Assembly (NCBI RefSeq): GCF_048403405.1
Contig: NZ_CP183129.1
DNA length: 64,000 bases
Direction: 5' to 3' (one strand)
From: Escherichia coli
Lineage (GTDB): Bacteria; Pseudomonadota; Gammaproteobacteria; Enterobacterales; Enterobacteriaceae
A program made the position numbers. This document shows, piece by piece, positions 43,601 to 46,600 of this stretch (positions are counted from its first letter, which is position 1; every line of letters begins with the position of its first letter).

Positions 43601-46600
43601 TACTACATCAGCGATAAAGGCCAGAAATACCGAAAAGACGTTCAGCAAATAATCAGCCAACTCAAGTTAGACATTTTCACCAAATCACGACTACGCATCA
43701 AAGTCATCGCAGACGTTCCAGACTCCCGCCGCCGAGACCTCGATAACATCCTGAAAGGTTTACTCGACTCCCTTATCCACGCCGGATTTGCGGAAGACGA
43801 CGAGCAATTCGATGACATTCGCGTAATTCGTGGCGTGAAAGTACCAGGCGGAAGGCTTGGAATAAAAATCACCGAACTGGAGAGCGTATGAACGCCACAA
43901 TTCAAACGATACCAGAGCTTCTTATCCAGACACGAGGCAATCAGACCGAAGTGGCAAGGATGCTTTCCTGCGCAAGAGGAACAGTGCTCAAGTACAACCG
44001 AGACAGCAAAGGCGAGCGTCACGTAATAGTTAACGGCGTCCTGATGGTCAAACAGGGCAAAAGGGGAAGGCCATGAGACTCGAAAGCGTAGCTAAATTTC
44101 ATTCGCCAAAAAGCCCGATGATGAGCGACTCACCACGGGCTACGGCTTCTGACTCTCTTTCCGGTACTGATGTGATGGCTGCTATGGGGATGGCGCAATC
44201 ACAAGCCGGATTCGGAATGGCTGCATTCTGCGGTAAGCATGAACTCAGCCAGAACGACAAACAAAAGGCTATCAACTATCTGATGCAATTTGCACACAAG
44301 GTATCGGGGAAATACCGTGGCGTTGCAAAACTTGAAGGAAATACTAAGGCAAAGGTACTGCAAGTGCTCGCAACATTCGCTTATGCGGATTATTGCCGTA
44401 GTGCCGCGACGCCGGGCGCAAGATGCAGAGATTGCCACGGTACAGGCCGTGCGGTTGATATTGCCAAAACAGAGCAGTGGGGGAGAGTTGTCGAAAAAGA
44501 GTGCGGAAGATGCAAAGGCGTCGGCTATTCCAGGATGCCAGCAAGCGCCGCATATCGCGCTGTAACGATGCTAATCCCAAACCTTACCCAACCCACCTGG
44601 TCACGCACTGTTAAGCCGCTGTATGACGCTCTGGTGGTGCAATGCCACAAGGAAGAGTCAATCGCAGACAATATTTTGAATGCGGTCACACGTTAGCAGC
44701 ATGATTGCCACGGATGGCAACATATTAACGGCATGATATTGACTTTTTGAATAAAGTTGGGTAAATTTGACCCAACGATGGGTTAATTCGCTCGTTGTGG
44801 TAGTGAGATAAAAAGAGGCGGCGCTTACTACCGATTCCGCCTAGTTGGTCACTTCGACGTATCGTCTGGAACTCCAACCATCGCAGGCTGAGAGGTCTGC
44901 AAAATGCAATCCCGAAACAGTTAGCAGGTAATAGTTAGAGCCTGCATAACGGTTTCGGGATTTTTTATTTGGGTCAGTCGTATAAAGGTCATTACGGAAG
45001 GCTGTTAACCTTCTTATCGTGGTTCGAGTCCACGCTGTCCCGCCAAATATGCTGGTTTAGCTCCAATGGTAGAGCAGTCGCCTTGTAAGCGAATGGGTAG
45101 CGGTTCAAGTCCGTTAACCAGCACCATAACTGAGCCGTAGCCACTGGCTATCCTGAATTCATCAGTGATAGTTACGCTGCGGCCTTCTACACATGACCTT
45201 CGTGAAAGCGGTGGCAGGAGGTCGCGCTAATAACCTCCTGCCGTTTTGCCCGTGCATATCGGTCACGAACAAATCTGATTACTAAACACAGTAGCCTGGA
45301 TTTGTTCTATCAGTAATCGACCTTATTCCTAATTAAATAGAGCAAATCCCCTCAATGAAGGGGTAGAGCATGTACCGTATGGACAAAATCAGAGAATGGT
45401 TCAGTTACAGCTTCGGAGGACTGACTGCGATGGGTGGCATTCTCTCCCTGAATGACTGGGCTGTCATCATTGGTATTCTTTGTACTGTCGGCACATTTGG
45501 CATCAACTGGTACTACAAGCGCAAAGAGCGCGAGGACAGATTGAATGGCAATGTCACCGGCACTACGAAATAGCGTAATAGCGGCGATAAGTGGCGGGGC
45601 TATTGCTATAGCATCTGTGTTAATCACTGGACCAAGTGGTAACGATGGTCTGGAAGGTGTTAGCTACATACCATACAAAGATATTGTTGGTGTATGGACT
45701 GTATGTCACGGACACACCGGAAAAGACATCATGCTCGGTAAAACGTATACCAAAGCAGAATGCAAAGCCCTCCTGAATAAAGACCTTGCCACGGTCGCCA
45801 GACAAATTAACCCGTACATCAAAGTCGATATACCGGAAACAATGCGCGGCGCTCTTTACTCATTCGTTTACAACGTGGGTGCTGGCAATTTCAGAACATC
45901 GACGCTTCTTCGCAAAATAAACCAGGGCGATATCAAAGGCGCATGTGATCAGCTACGTCGCTGGACATATGCTGGCGGTAAGCAATGGAAAGGTCTCATG
46001 ACTCGTCGTGAGATTGAGCGTGAAGTCTGTTTGTGGGGGAAACAATGAGCAGAGTAACCGCGATTATCTCCGCTCTGGTTATCTGCATCATCGTCTGCCT
46101 GTCATGGGCTGTTAATCATTACCGTGATAACGCCATGACCTACAAAGAGCAGCGCGATAAAAAAGTCAGTGAGCTGAAGCAGGCGACCGCCACCATTACT
46201 GACATGCAGCAACGCCATCGTGCTGCTGATGCACTCGATGCTAAATACACGAAGGAGTTAGCTGATGCGAAAGCTGAAAATGATGCTCTTCGGCGCAAGC
46301 TTGATAATGGTGGCAGGGTGCTCGTCAAAGGAAAATGCCCTGTGCCATCCTCAGCCGAAACCTCCGGCGCCTCCGGCATGGGCAATGATGCCACCGTCGA
46401 ACTCTCTCCAGTTGCTGGACGAAACGTTCTCGGTGTCCGGGACGGAATTATCCGCGACCAAACAGCACTGAGAACGCTTCAGGAATACATCAGGACGCAA
46501 TGCCTTCGATGATAGCGATAATTTTACTCATCATCCTTCACATCTGGCTCTGTAGACAGGGTGGTGCTCACTTCTGGAGTAAATCCAGATTAAACATCTC

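What the first reader, a model, noticed from the sequence alone, without database searches (positions are those of the whole stretch)
44971..45126. Two tRNA-like genes inserted after tR'
Between the tR' terminator and the holin region, where lambda has only leader sequence, two cloverleaf-capable sequences with CCA ends are present (anticodons GUU and UGU by manual fold). The first has stem mismatches and may be degenerate.
Basis: seen in the sequence. Interest (0 to 1): 0.35.

Follow-up and report, generated by a model that had tools for sequence, protein, structure and literature searches.

The report
Known phage tRNA-Asn/tRNA-Thr gene pair
The two sequences are real tRNA genes (Asn-GUU and Thr-UGU) that many lambda-like phages carry at the start of their late operon; the pair has been described for years, and the Thr tRNA was recently shown to help phages escape a tRNA-cutting bacterial defence, so the finding is correct but ordinary.

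Summary
ARAGORN calls tRNA-Asn(GUU) at 44971-45045 and tRNA-Thr(UGU) at 45051-45126. Rfam's tRNA model scores them 55.3 and 61.5 bits against a threshold of 29. Both encode CCA and carry the known AsnRS and ThrRS identity nucleotides.

The 156-nt cassette is base-for-base identical to that of phage HK446. It differs by one spacer base from phage 21, Sf6 and SfI. RefSeq annotates it as tRNA-Asn and tRNA-Thr, and it matches in about 350 of 5,426 complete E. coli genomes.

It sits 1-4 nt after the lambda-type tR' T-tract. It replaces a non-homologous 163-nt lambda segment, so it is a substitution rather than an insertion.

The first tRNA is not degenerate. Its two mismatches (U4·U69, U13·U22) are conserved, while other pairs change compensatorily in relatives.

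The likely role is to add to or replace host tRNAs during late protein synthesis. ACA is used three times more often in this prophage's late genes than in core E. coli genes. A 2026 preprint shows that plasmid-expressed HK446 tRNA-Thr(UGU) rescues phages from the P2 OLD tRNase. Host Thr(UGU) and Asn(GUU) are also PARIS AriB targets, and both phage copies lack the critical U39.

Verdict: already known, low interest.

The parts
44073..44696 (+). Lambda-type late antiterminator gene Q (207 aa)
   Evidence: ORF. Pfam PF03589 Antiterm, E=1.3e-57. About 97% nucleotide identity to the HK446 and lambda Q region.
44739..44767 (+). pR' late promoter (TTGACT, 17-nt spacer, TAAATT)
   Evidence: Promoter scan. 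It was the only + strand promoter-like site found in 44400-45600. The stretch aligns with lambda pR', and HK446 is annotated 'similar to lambda PR'' at the homologous place.
44774..44967 (+). qut site and 6S-RNA-type leader transcript ending at tR' (ends inferred from lambda)
   Evidence: 96-98% identity to the lambda leader. The start and end coordinates are inferred from my knowledge of the 194-nt lambda 6S RNA and were not measured here.
44909..44969 (+). tR' intrinsic terminator: compound hairpin 44909-44962 and T-tract (44960-44969 reads ATTTTTTATT)
   Evidence: Sequence, predicted hairpin, alignment with lambda tR'. The shared TTTTTTAT is the left mosaic junction between the lambda-type and 21-type modules.
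44971..45045 (+). tRNA-Asn, anticodon GUU, 75 nt with encoded CCA and discriminator G73
   Evidence: ARAGORN. Rfam 55.3 bits. Cloverleaf by minimum free energy. Covariation in relatives. Identical in phage 21, Sf6, L, JLK-2012 and HK446.
45046..45050 (+). 5-nt spacer AATAT between the two tRNAs
   Evidence: Sequence. This is the only position that differs from phage 21 and Sf6 (AACAT), and it also varies in three E. coli prophage copies.
45051..45126 (+). tRNA-Thr, anticodon UGU, 76 nt with encoded CCA, with G1-C72, C2-G71 and A73
   Evidence: ARAGORN. Rfam 61.5 bits. Covariation, including G5-C68 to U5-A68 in E. coli ETEC4091. Exact match to the HK446 sequence, whose tRNA-Thr(UGU) was tested experimentally in bioRxiv 10.64898/2026.07.10.737580.
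45128..45365 (+). Remainder of the lambda-like late leader, up to the holin ribosome-binding region
   Evidence: Lambda, Sf6 and HK446 homology resumes at AACTGAGCCGTAGCC, right after the CCA of tRNA-Thr. Homology to HK446 and lambda decays at 45353-45365.
45370..46512 (+). First late genes downstream: class II holin, SAR-type lysozyme and Rz-like spanin
   Evidence: Pfam PF16080 (E=4.4e-21), PF00959 (E=1.4e-45) and PF03245 (E=7.6e-29).

Best explanation
[quoted passage not shown] They form the well-known Asn-Thr cassette of lambdoid and P22-like phages (phage 21, Sf6, SfI, HK446, mEp506, Kapi1). Here the cassette is joined to a lambda-type Q-pR'-tR' module. No other + strand promoter-like site was found between Q and the holin gene. 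The cassette is therefore most likely transcribed only when Q-modified RNA polymerase reads through tR', as the 5' part of the late mRNA. It would then be cut out by RNase P and the host 3'-end trimming enzymes (inferred). The mature tRNAs add to, or replace, the host pool that reads ACA and AAC/AAU just when the late proteins are made. This has two benefits that do not exclude each other. It meets the phage's high demand for ACA, which is rare in E. coli. It also keeps late translation going when host tRNA-Thr(UGU), and perhaps tRNA-Asn(GUU), is destroyed by Toprim tRNases of competing elements (P2 OLD, PARIS AriB). Shown here: the genes, their structure, their conservation, their position and the codon bias. 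Shown in the literature: plasmid-expressed HK446 tRNA-Thr counteracts OLD. Inferred: Q-dependent expression, processing, charging, and any defence role of tRNA-Asn.
For: Gene calls come, and independent cloverleaf folds. The known identity elements for AsnRS (G34 U35 U36, G73) and ThrRS (G1-C72, C2-G71, G35 U36) are present; the sequences are, and the identity rules are from my knowledge. Structure is under selection: 12 of 19 Asn pairs and 9 of 21 Thr pairs show a change on both sides across relatives, 94.7% and 96.6% of cells are paired against at most 55% when partners are slid, and 0 of 500 shuffles reach the covariation score. There are 40 differences from HK446 over 1,303 nt of Q plus leader, and none falls in the 156-nt cassette (P about 0.006). 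The cassette matches in 368 of 5,426 complete E. coli genomes, 346 of them over at least 80% of its length, and every near-complete match listed is annotated tRNA-Asn and tRNA-Thr. It also matches dozens of phage records. pR' is the only + strand promoter-like site between Q and the holin gene. ACA makes up 26% of Thr codons (15.9 per 1000) in the window's late genes, against 10% (5.4 per 1000) in 42 core MG1655 genes (odds ratio 3.1, P=5e-11). Asn codons run at 48.9 against 37.7 per 1000. Lambda, which lacks the cassette, has ACA at 8.1 and Asn at 36.0 per 1000. In the literature, OLD depletes host Thr(UGU) by cutting after nt 27-29, and expressed HK446 tRNA-Thr(UGU) restores plaquing of HK97, HK542 and Bas34 (bioRxiv 10.64898/2026.07.10.737580). 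AriB cleaves host Lys(UUU), Thr(UGU) and Asn(GUU) at 40|41 next to U36-A-A-U39, and U39 to A abolishes cleavage of tRNA-Lys (PMC12409363). The window tRNAs read UAAC39 (Asn) and UAAG39 (Thr), and the Thr copy differs from thrU at positions 27, 28 and 29.
Against: The OLD rescue used plasmid expression. HK446's own escape from OLD was mapped to the protein Oad2, and the tRNA alone did not rescue lambda or recB toxicity. There is no tRNA-Lys(UUU) in the window, so the pair cannot by itself neutralise the studied B185 PARIS system, which needs a resistant tRNA-Lys. A non-U base at position 39 is expected by chance in three of four unrelated tRNAs, and P1's tRNA-Asn keeps UAAU. AAC is not preferred over AAU in the late genes (53% against 63% in core genes). 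The comparison of phages with and without the cassette rests on only three genomes. tRNA-Thr has C14 instead of the near-universal A14.
Confidence: 0.8

Rival explanations
1. The role is codon supply only. The tRNAs exist only to match the A-rich codon use of the phage late genes (ACA, AAY), and the rescue from OLD is a side effect of overexpression with no role in nature.
For: ACA is three-fold enriched and Asn codons 1.3-fold enriched in the late genes relative to core E. coli genes. SfI reports the same ACA bias (PMC3636060). In phage L, 24 of 25 Asn codons in the coat gene are AAC (PMC8022706). HK446 escapes OLD through Oad2 rather than through the tRNA.
Against: Expressing extra E. coli tRNA-Thr(UGU) had no effect against OLD, whereas the HK446 tRNA did, so the sequence differences matter and not just the dose. 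The phage tRNAs differ from the host ones exactly at the OLD (27-29) and AriB (39, 41) sites. Asn shows no AAC preference and only a modest excess.
Confidence: 0.3
2. The tRNA structures mainly serve as an RNA-processing element. RNase P and 3'-end processing would remove the 6S/tR' leader and give the late mRNA a defined new 5' end, and decoding would be secondary.
For: tRNA-Asn begins 1-4 nt after the terminator T-tract. In the phage 21 record the annotated terminated RNA ends at 4701 and tRNA-Asn starts at 4702. tRNAs co-transcribed ahead of an mRNA are known in E. coli, in the thrU-tyrU-glyT-thrT-tufB operon (layout; co-transcription from my knowledge).
Against: Lambda and most relatives do without any tRNA at this place. 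The anticodons, the identity elements and the whole cloverleaf are conserved, which a mere cleavage signal would not require. The Thr tRNA works in trans from a plasmid.
Confidence: 0.1
3. The tRNAs compensate for a host tRNA gene damaged by prophage integration. The OLD preprint suggests this for HK446.
For: The authors of bioRxiv 10.64898/2026.07.10.737580 raise this idea for HK446. HK446 and SfI integrate in thrW, which is a Thr tRNA gene.
Against: thrW is tRNA-Thr(CGU), not UGU, and attP rebuilds the gene (PMC8022706). Kapi1 carries the same cassette but integrates in argW, which stays intact (PMC8787464). This window's host flank has the gene order that precedes the dsdC-argW locus (gene names from my knowledge). 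The idea leaves tRNA-Asn unexplained. The cassette lies behind tR', so it should be largely silent in a lysogen (inferred).
Confidence: 0.03
4. The pair is a decaying relic or hitch-hiker, meaning tRNA-like sequences that no longer function.
For: There are two mismatches in tRNA-Asn, and one mismatch plus C14 in tRNA-Thr. Clearly decayed versions of the second tRNA exist in relatives: the JLK-2012 chimera and the phage L 'tRNA-Leu(UAA)', neither of which ARAGORN calls.
Against: Bit scores are about twice the Rfam threshold. Compensatory changes surround the conserved mismatches. The cassette has no substitutions while its flanks carry 3%. The Thr copy has experimentally shown activity.
Confidence: 0.03

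Closest known systems
tRNA-Asn(GUU)-tRNA-Thr(UGU) cassette of phage 21, Sf6, SfI, HK446, mEp506 and Kapi1 (late-operon leader of lambdoid and P22-like phages)
   Same: The sequence is the same: 100% identity to HK446, and one spacer base different from phage 21, Sf6 and SfI. The order is the same, and so is the position between the late terminator and the holin gene. The cassette has been described in PMC3636060, PMC8022706 and PMC2629481.
   Different: In phage 21, Sf6 and L the cassette follows a 21-type Q, promoter and short terminated RNA. Here, as in HK446, mEp506 and Kapi1, it follows the lambda-type Q, pR', 6S and tR' module, with the junction inside the shared TTTTTTAT of the terminators. 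The lysis genes downstream are of another type, an HP1-family holin plus a SAR lysozyme.
Phage-encoded tRNA variants that neutralise tRNA-cleaving defences: T5 Lys/Thr/Asn against PARIS AriB, and T4, Bas32, Bas33 and HK446 Thr(UGU) against P2 OLD
   Same: The anticodons are the same (Thr UGU, Asn GUU). The Thr gene is the very HK446 sequence that was tested. Both copies carry substitutions at the nuclease sites relative to host tRNAs.
   Different: This is a temperate phage with only two tRNAs and no tRNA-Lys. The cassette is placed behind a Q-dependent terminator. Resistance of this tRNA-Asn to any nuclease has not been tested.
P1 tandem tRNA-Asn(GUU)-tRNA-Thr(UGU), and the N4 Asn-Ser-Thr-Pro cluster
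   Same: The same two anticodons occur in the same order and close together, with a 2-nt spacer in P1. The ThrRS and AsnRS identity positions are invariant across all of them.
   Different: Identity is only about 65-85%. In P1 the pair lies about 650 bp downstream of the C1-controlled ban promoters rather than in a late leader. P1's tRNA-Asn keeps the host-like UAAU motif.
tRNA genes ileZ-argN-argO of Shiga-toxin phage 933W, downstream of pR' (from my knowledge; not examined here)
   Same: They are tRNA genes sitting in the Q-controlled late leader of a lambdoid phage and are thought to supply rare-codon decoding.
   Different: They have different anticodons (AUA, AGA/AGG) and a different sequence.
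E. coli thrU-tyrU-glyT-thrT-tufB operon
   Same: tRNAs, including Thr(UGU), lie directly upstream of a protein-coding gene. Co-transcription and processing from one transcript is established knowledge (from my knowledge).
   Different: It is a host operon with a constitutive strong promoter and no terminator or antiterminator gate. thrU is only about 70% identical to the phage tRNA-Thr.

Membership tests
tRNA (Rfam RF00005) | Score above the curated gathering threshold of the tRNA covariance model, and a call by an independent tRNA finder | tested here: met
   The scores are 55.3 and 61.5 bits against a gathering score of 29. ARAGORN calls both genes.
tRNA (Rfam RF00005) | Cloverleaf with a 7-bp acceptor stem, 4-bp D stem, 5-bp anticodon stem and 5-bp T stem, supported by covariation | tested here: met
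   Each folds into a cloverleaf by minimum free energy. 94.7% and 96.6% of pair cells are standard pairs, and 12 and 9 pairs show changes on both sides. The exceptions are U4·U69 and U13·U22 in Asn and G27·A43 in Thr, all conserved in relatives.
tRNA (Rfam RF00005) | Conserved core nucleotides: U8, A14, G18-G19, A21, U33, purine 37, G53-C61, U54-U55-C56 and A58 | tested here: met
   All are present in tRNA-Asn. All are present in tRNA-Thr except C14 in place of A14 (sequences). C14 is shared by the Mulock and E. coli prophage copies.
tRNA (Rfam RF00005) | Identity elements matching the anticodon: Asn needs G34 U35 U36 and G73; Thr needs G1-C72, C2-G71, G35 and U36 (rules from my knowledge) | tested here: met
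   The sequence shows all of them. G73 is invariant in the six Asn genes, and G1-C72 and C2-G71 are invariant in the seven Thr genes.
tRNA (Rfam RF00005) | Transcribed, processed to a mature 75-76-nt RNA and aminoacylated | not testable with these tools
   For the identical HK446 tRNA-Thr, rescue of phage growth when expressed from a plasmid implies function. There are no data for tRNA-Asn.
Lambdoid late-leader Asn-Thr tRNA cassette (phage 21, Sf6, HK446 type) | Near-identical sequence with both genes in the order Asn then Thr | tested here: met
   There is an exact 156-nt match in HK446, and 99.4% identity to phage 21, Sf6 and SfI.
Lambdoid late-leader Asn-Thr tRNA cassette (phage 21, Sf6, HK446 type) | Located between the late-operon terminator (tR') and the holin gene, downstream of Q | tested here: met
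   See, and compare the annotations of Sf6 and the E. coli prophage.
Nuclease-resistant phage tRNAs (counter-defence against OLD and PARIS) | Same anticodon as a host tRNA targeted by the nuclease, with substitutions at the cleavage or recognition site | tested here: met
   For Thr, positions 27-29 read GUC against ACU in thrU, and positions 39-41 read GCG against UCA. For Asn, positions 39-41 read CCU against UCC in asnT.
Nuclease-resistant phage tRNAs (counter-defence against OLD and PARIS) | The tRNA is not cleaved by the nuclease, and its expression restores phage growth | not testable with these tools
   The literature reports that HK446 Thr(UGU) gives strong rescue of HK97, HK542 and Bas34 from OLD, but not of lambda. 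No cleavage assay on this tRNA is reported, and nothing is reported for this tRNA-Asn or for AriB.
Nuclease-resistant phage tRNAs (counter-defence against OLD and PARIS) | A complete set of resistant tRNAs for all main targets of the nuclease | tested here: not met
   The window has only two tRNAs. It lacks Lys(UUU), which is needed against B185 PARIS. It also lacks Gly(UCC), fMet, Val(UAC) and Pro(UGG), which OLD targets.

The most novel reading that the evidence does not exclude
The Asn(GUU)-Thr(UGU) pair as a whole, and not just the Thr gene tested in 2026, could be a compact counter-measure against Toprim tRNases (P2 OLD, PARIS AriB and relatives) carried by competing prophages and satellites. 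Placing it behind tR' would tie delivery of nuclease-resistant tRNAs to the moment late mRNAs appear, so the late operon carries its own decoding capacity for the two codon families these nucleases knock out. The recurrence of the same two anticodons side by side in P1 and N4, and together with other tRNAs in T5, would then reflect convergent selection by this nuclease family rather than codon bias alone. The OLD preprint treats HK446 as carrying a single tRNA, and the HK446 RefSeq record does not annotate either gene.
Probability: 0.3. Interest if true: 0.45.

Novelty: already known. Interest (0 to 1): 0.15.

Why it matters
As an annotation the finding matters little. NCBI's pipeline already labels this cassette in hundreds of E. 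coli prophages, and it has been noted in phage papers since phage 21 and Sf6. Its wider interest lies in recent work on phage tRNAs as replacements for host tRNAs destroyed by abortive-infection nucleases. This window carries the exact tRNA-Thr(UGU) shown in 2026 to counteract P2 OLD. It also carries an untested tRNA-Asn(GUU) whose host counterpart is a PARIS target. The prophage is therefore a convenient natural case for asking whether a temperate phage gains from two late-expressed tRNAs at native expression levels.

Tried and rejected
1. I tested whether lambda's equal-length segment (lambda 44782-44944, 163 nt) is a decayed copy of the tRNA pair, and rejected this. The global alignment score is z=1.2 against 1000 dinucleotide shuffles (122 of 1000 as good), and the local score is no better than the shuffles. 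ARAGORN finds no tRNA there, and a permissive Rfam search (E up to 10) finds no tRNA hit.

2. I tested whether the first tRNA is degenerate, and rejected this.

3. I considered whether the sequences are attachment-site fragments of host tRNA genes, and rejected this. Both are full length. They are only 62% (Asn) and 70% (Thr) identical to asnT and thrU. They lie about 16 kb from the left prophage end, next to Q rather than next to an integrase gene.

4. I used the window's own host flank (1-28 kb) as a codon baseline, and rejected it. It has 45% GC and atypical codon use dominated by a 2,637-aa ORF. I used 42 annotated MG1655 genes instead.

5. I folded the read-through leader together with both tRNAs. 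The tR' hairpin is predicted cleanly, but the tandem cloverleaves are only partly recovered, so the fold says nothing about processing.

6. I could not read the original phage 21 late-region paper (Guo, Kainz and Roberts 1991), because it is not held in the library.
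Full report
**Observation**

ARAGORN run on the whole 64-kb window returns exactly two genes. 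They are tRNA-Asn (anticodon GTT) at 44971-45045 and tRNA-Thr (TGT) at 45051-45126, both on the + strand.

An independent covariance-model search against all of Rfam finds only these two features in the window. Both hit RF00005, at 55.3 bits (E=3.4e-9) and 61.5 bits (E=6.9e-11), against a gathering score of 29. Each sequence folds into a cloverleaf on its own by minimum free energy. Both end in an encoded CCA.

The second tRNA also has G27·A43, and C14 where almost all tRNAs have A14.

**Setting**

- Upstream lies a lambda-type Q gene at 44073-44696 (Pfam Antiterm).
- The pR' promoter follows at 44739-44767 (TTGACT, 17-nt spacer, TAAATT). It was the only + strand promoter-like site found between Q and the holin gene.
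- A leader 96-98% identical to the lambda qut/6S region comes next.
- The compound tR' hairpin is at 44909-44962, followed by TTTTTTATT.
- tRNA-Asn starts at 44971, 1-4 nt after the T-tract.
- After the CCA of tRNA-Thr, homology to the lambda leader resumes at AACTGAGCCGTAGCC. It runs to about 45353, just before a non-lambda lysis cassette made of an HP1-family holin, a SAR-type lysozyme and an Rz-like spanin.

The alignment shows that lambda has a 163-nt segment (lambda 44782-44944) in place of the 159-nt cassette segment. The event is therefore an equal-length replacement, not an insertion. That lambda segment is not a decayed tRNA pair. Its similarity to the cassette is no better than shuffled controls, ARAGORN finds nothing, and a permissive Rfam search finds no tRNA.

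**What it is**

The cassette is well known.

- The 156 nt are identical to phage HK446.
- They are 99.4% identical to phage 21, Sf6 and SfI, the only difference being one base in the 5-nt spacer.
- They are 98-99% identical to several Salmonella phages.
- Sf6's GenBank record annotates 'tRNA-Asn ... similar to phage 21' and 'tRNA-Thr ... similar to phage 21' directly after its late terminator.
- mEp506 and Kapi1 annotate the pair in a lambda-type leader like this one.
- The cassette matches in 368 of 5,426 complete E. coli genomes, 346 of them over at least 80% of its length. Every near-complete match listed is annotated tRNA-Asn and tRNA-Thr. 79 genomes have it in the lambda-type context.
- Papers on SfI, phage L and epsilon34 discuss it (PMC3636060, PMC8022706, PMC2629481).

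In phage 21, Sf6 and L the cassette follows a 21-type Q, promoter and terminator. Here and in HK446 it follows the lambda-type module. The two terminators share TTTTTTAT, and the switch occurs exactly there.

**Is the first tRNA degenerate?**

No. tRNA-Asn is 100% identical in the window, phage 21, Sf6, L, JLK-2012 and HK446, although their flanks differ.

In Klebsiella phage Mulock three pairs change on both sides: A6-U67 to G-C, G7-C66 to A-U, and A28-U42 to C-G. U4·U69 and U13·U22 stay as they are.

For tRNA-Thr the variation also preserves pairing:
- Mulock changes pairs 3-70 and 6-67 on both sides.
- E. coli ETEC4091 changes G5-C68 to U5-A68.
- Strain BHD6 has G5·U68.

Across six Asn and seven Thr genes, 94.7% and 96.6% of pair cells are standard pairs, against at most 55% when partners are slid. 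No shuffle of 500 reaches the observed covariation score.

Against HK446 there are 40 differences in 1,303 nt of Q plus leader, and none falls in the cassette (P about 0.006).

The nucleotides known to specify AsnRS (G34 U35 U36, G73) and ThrRS (G1-C72, C2-G71, G35 U36) are present and are invariant in the alignments. The identity rules themselves come from my knowledge.

**How it probably works**

With no other promoter-like site found, the simplest model is as follows. The tRNAs are made only when Q-modified polymerase reads through tR', as the first 160 nt of the late message after the leader. RNase P and the host 3' trimming enzymes then release them. This is inference: the phage L authors state that the mode of expression is unknown. 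The E. coli thrU-tyrU-glyT-thrT-tufB arrangement is a host precedent for tRNAs placed ahead of an mRNA.

Two benefits are supported, and they are not exclusive.

*Codon supply.*

| Gene set | ACA share of Thr codons | ACA per 1000 | Asn per 1000 |
|---|---|---|---|
| Window late genes | 26% | 15.9 | 48.9 |
| 42 core MG1655 genes | 10% | 5.4 | 37.7 |
| HK446 late genes (has the cassette) | 15.2% | 10.0 | 49.7 |
| Lambda late genes (no cassette) | 11.5% | 8.1 | 36.0 |

The ACA difference between the window late genes and the MG1655 genes has an odds ratio of 3.1 (P=5e-11). With only three phages this is suggestive, not a test. There is no preference for AAC over AAU.

*Counter-defence.* A July 2026 preprint (bioRxiv 10.64898/2026.07.10.737580) reports the following:
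- P2 OLD is a Toprim tRNase that depletes host Thr(UGU), Gly(UCC), fMet, Val(UAC) and Pro(UGG), cutting after nt 27-29.
- Plasmid expression of viral Thr(UGU) tRNAs, explicitly including HK446's, restores plaquing of OLD-sensitive HK97, HK542 and Bas34 to near wild type.
- Extra E. coli Thr(UGU) does nothing.

The window's gene is that same sequence, and it differs from thrU at positions 27, 28 and 29.

Separately, PARIS AriB cleaves host Lys(UUU), Thr(UGU) and Asn(GUU) between positions 40 and 41, next to a shared U36-A-A-U39 motif. U39 to A abolishes cleavage of tRNA-Lys (PMC12409363). The window's tRNAs read UAAC (Asn) and UAAG (Thr) where asnT and thrU read UAAU.

Several limits apply:
- The rescue used overexpression.
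- HK446's own escape from OLD maps to the protein Oad2.
- The tRNA did not rescue lambda.
- The window has no tRNA-Lys, so it could not defeat the studied PARIS system alone.
- A non-U base at position 39 is what most unrelated tRNAs would show anyway.
- P1's tRNA-Asn keeps UAAU.

**Rivals**

*Compensation for a host tRNA gene hit by integration* (suggested for HK446 in the preprint) fits poorly:
- thrW is a CGU tRNA and is rebuilt by attP.
- Kapi1 carries the same cassette but integrates in argW.
- This window's host flank has the family order of the E. coli region next to dsdC-argW: CoA-transferase, TPP enzyme, hybrid sensor kinase, HlyD-type protein, MFS pump, PLP enzyme, GntP permease and LysR regulator.
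- The idea leaves tRNA-Asn unexplained.

*A pure RNA-processing role* is unlikely, because the anticodons and identity elements are conserved and the Thr tRNA acts in trans.

*A relic* is excluded by the conservation pattern.

**Comparison with what is known, and verdict**

The feature is a member of the tRNA family by every sequence test available here. It is an exact member of the phage 21, Sf6 and HK446 Asn-Thr late-leader cassette. It works like the nuclease-resistant tRNAs of T5 and T4, but it does not form a complete set for any characterised nuclease.

Similar Asn-Thr pairings occur in P1 (tandem, 2-nt spacer) and N4. This suggests a common selective cause, but that cause was not tested.

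Nothing here is new: the cassette is annotated, published and, for the Thr gene, functionally probed. The only open point is whether the Asn gene, and the native late-leader placement, contribute to escape from Toprim tRNases. I put that at about 0.3.

The finding is correct and well observed, but ordinary.

Noticed in passing
window 31283-31801 (-): A 172-aa ORF is 50.5% identical over its full length to HK446 gp27. That protein is Oad2, the anti-OLD protein identified in the 2026 OLD preprint (tblastn E=1.4e-49). It has no Pfam domain. This prophage may therefore carry both a protein and a tRNA counter-measure to OLD, as HK446 does.
   Followed up: partly
window 46612-47340 (+): An ORF with a MUG113/T5orf172 domain sits between the spanin gene and the terminase genes (Pfam). 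This is an accessory gene slot in the late operon. Its function is unknown.
   Followed up: partly
window 45051-45126, position 14 of the tRNA-Thr: tRNA-Thr has C14 instead of the near-universal A14, plus a G27·A43 mismatch. Both are conserved in the Mulock and E. coli prophage copies, but not in the P1, N4 or host Thr(UGU) genes. The PARIS paper says AriB also contacts the D-loop, so these oddities might relate to nuclease evasion.
   Followed up: partly
L009 (phage JLK-2012) 1287-1362: The annotated tRNA-Thr is a chimera. Its first 25 nt are those of the phage tRNA-Thr, and the rest is close to host thrU. It has two mismatches in the anticodon stem, and ARAGORN does not call it. It is followed by tRNA-Gly and by tciA and tciB, the same genes that lie near the Asn-Thr pair of P1.
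   Followed up: partly
L005 (phage L) 1587-1658: The published 'tRNA-Leu(UAA)' of phages L and ST64T keeps most of the acceptor stem and T arm of the tRNA-Thr. Its anticodon arm is remodelled and it is only 72 nt long. ARAGORN does not call it, so its identity as a Leu tRNA is doubtful.
   Followed up: partly
E. coli NZ_AP027212.1 869871-871223 (hit H40): In this genome the same Q-to-holin leader is about 680 bp longer, and it carries an annotated HNH endonuclease gene next to the tRNA pair. It looks like a homing-endonuclease insertion in the late leader.
   Followed up: no
L003 (phage 21) 4652-4702; window 44960-44971: In the phage 21 record the terminated small RNA is annotated to end at 4701, and tRNA-Asn starts at 4702. 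RNase P cleavage of read-through transcripts would then produce a small RNA with nearly the same 3' end as true termination. That could inflate apparent termination in vivo.
   Followed up: no
window 44971-45467 (- strand): RNA-seq of Kapi1 lysogens, whose leader is 97.5% identical to this window's, reports a clear signal antisense to the tRNAs (PMC12922286). The window has only a weak promoter-like site on the - strand, at 45467 to 45439 inside the holin gene. No antisense product was identified.
   Followed up: partly
window 1-28200: The host flank has the family order expected for E. coli frc-oxc-...-evgS-evgA-emrK-emrY-dsdA-dsdX-dsdC (Pfam; gene names from my knowledge). A low-GC stretch of about 12 kb follows, with a 2,637-aa ORF at 19687-27600. 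The prophage starts after that. The layout suggests an island plus a Kapi1-like prophage at the argW locus.
   Followed up: partly
NC_019714.1 (HK446 RefSeq) 35097-35252: The RefSeq and GenBank records of HK446 do not annotate either tRNA gene. The 2026 OLD preprint speaks of HK446 encoding 'a single' tRNA. The tRNA-Asn gene is present and intact there.
   Followed up: yes
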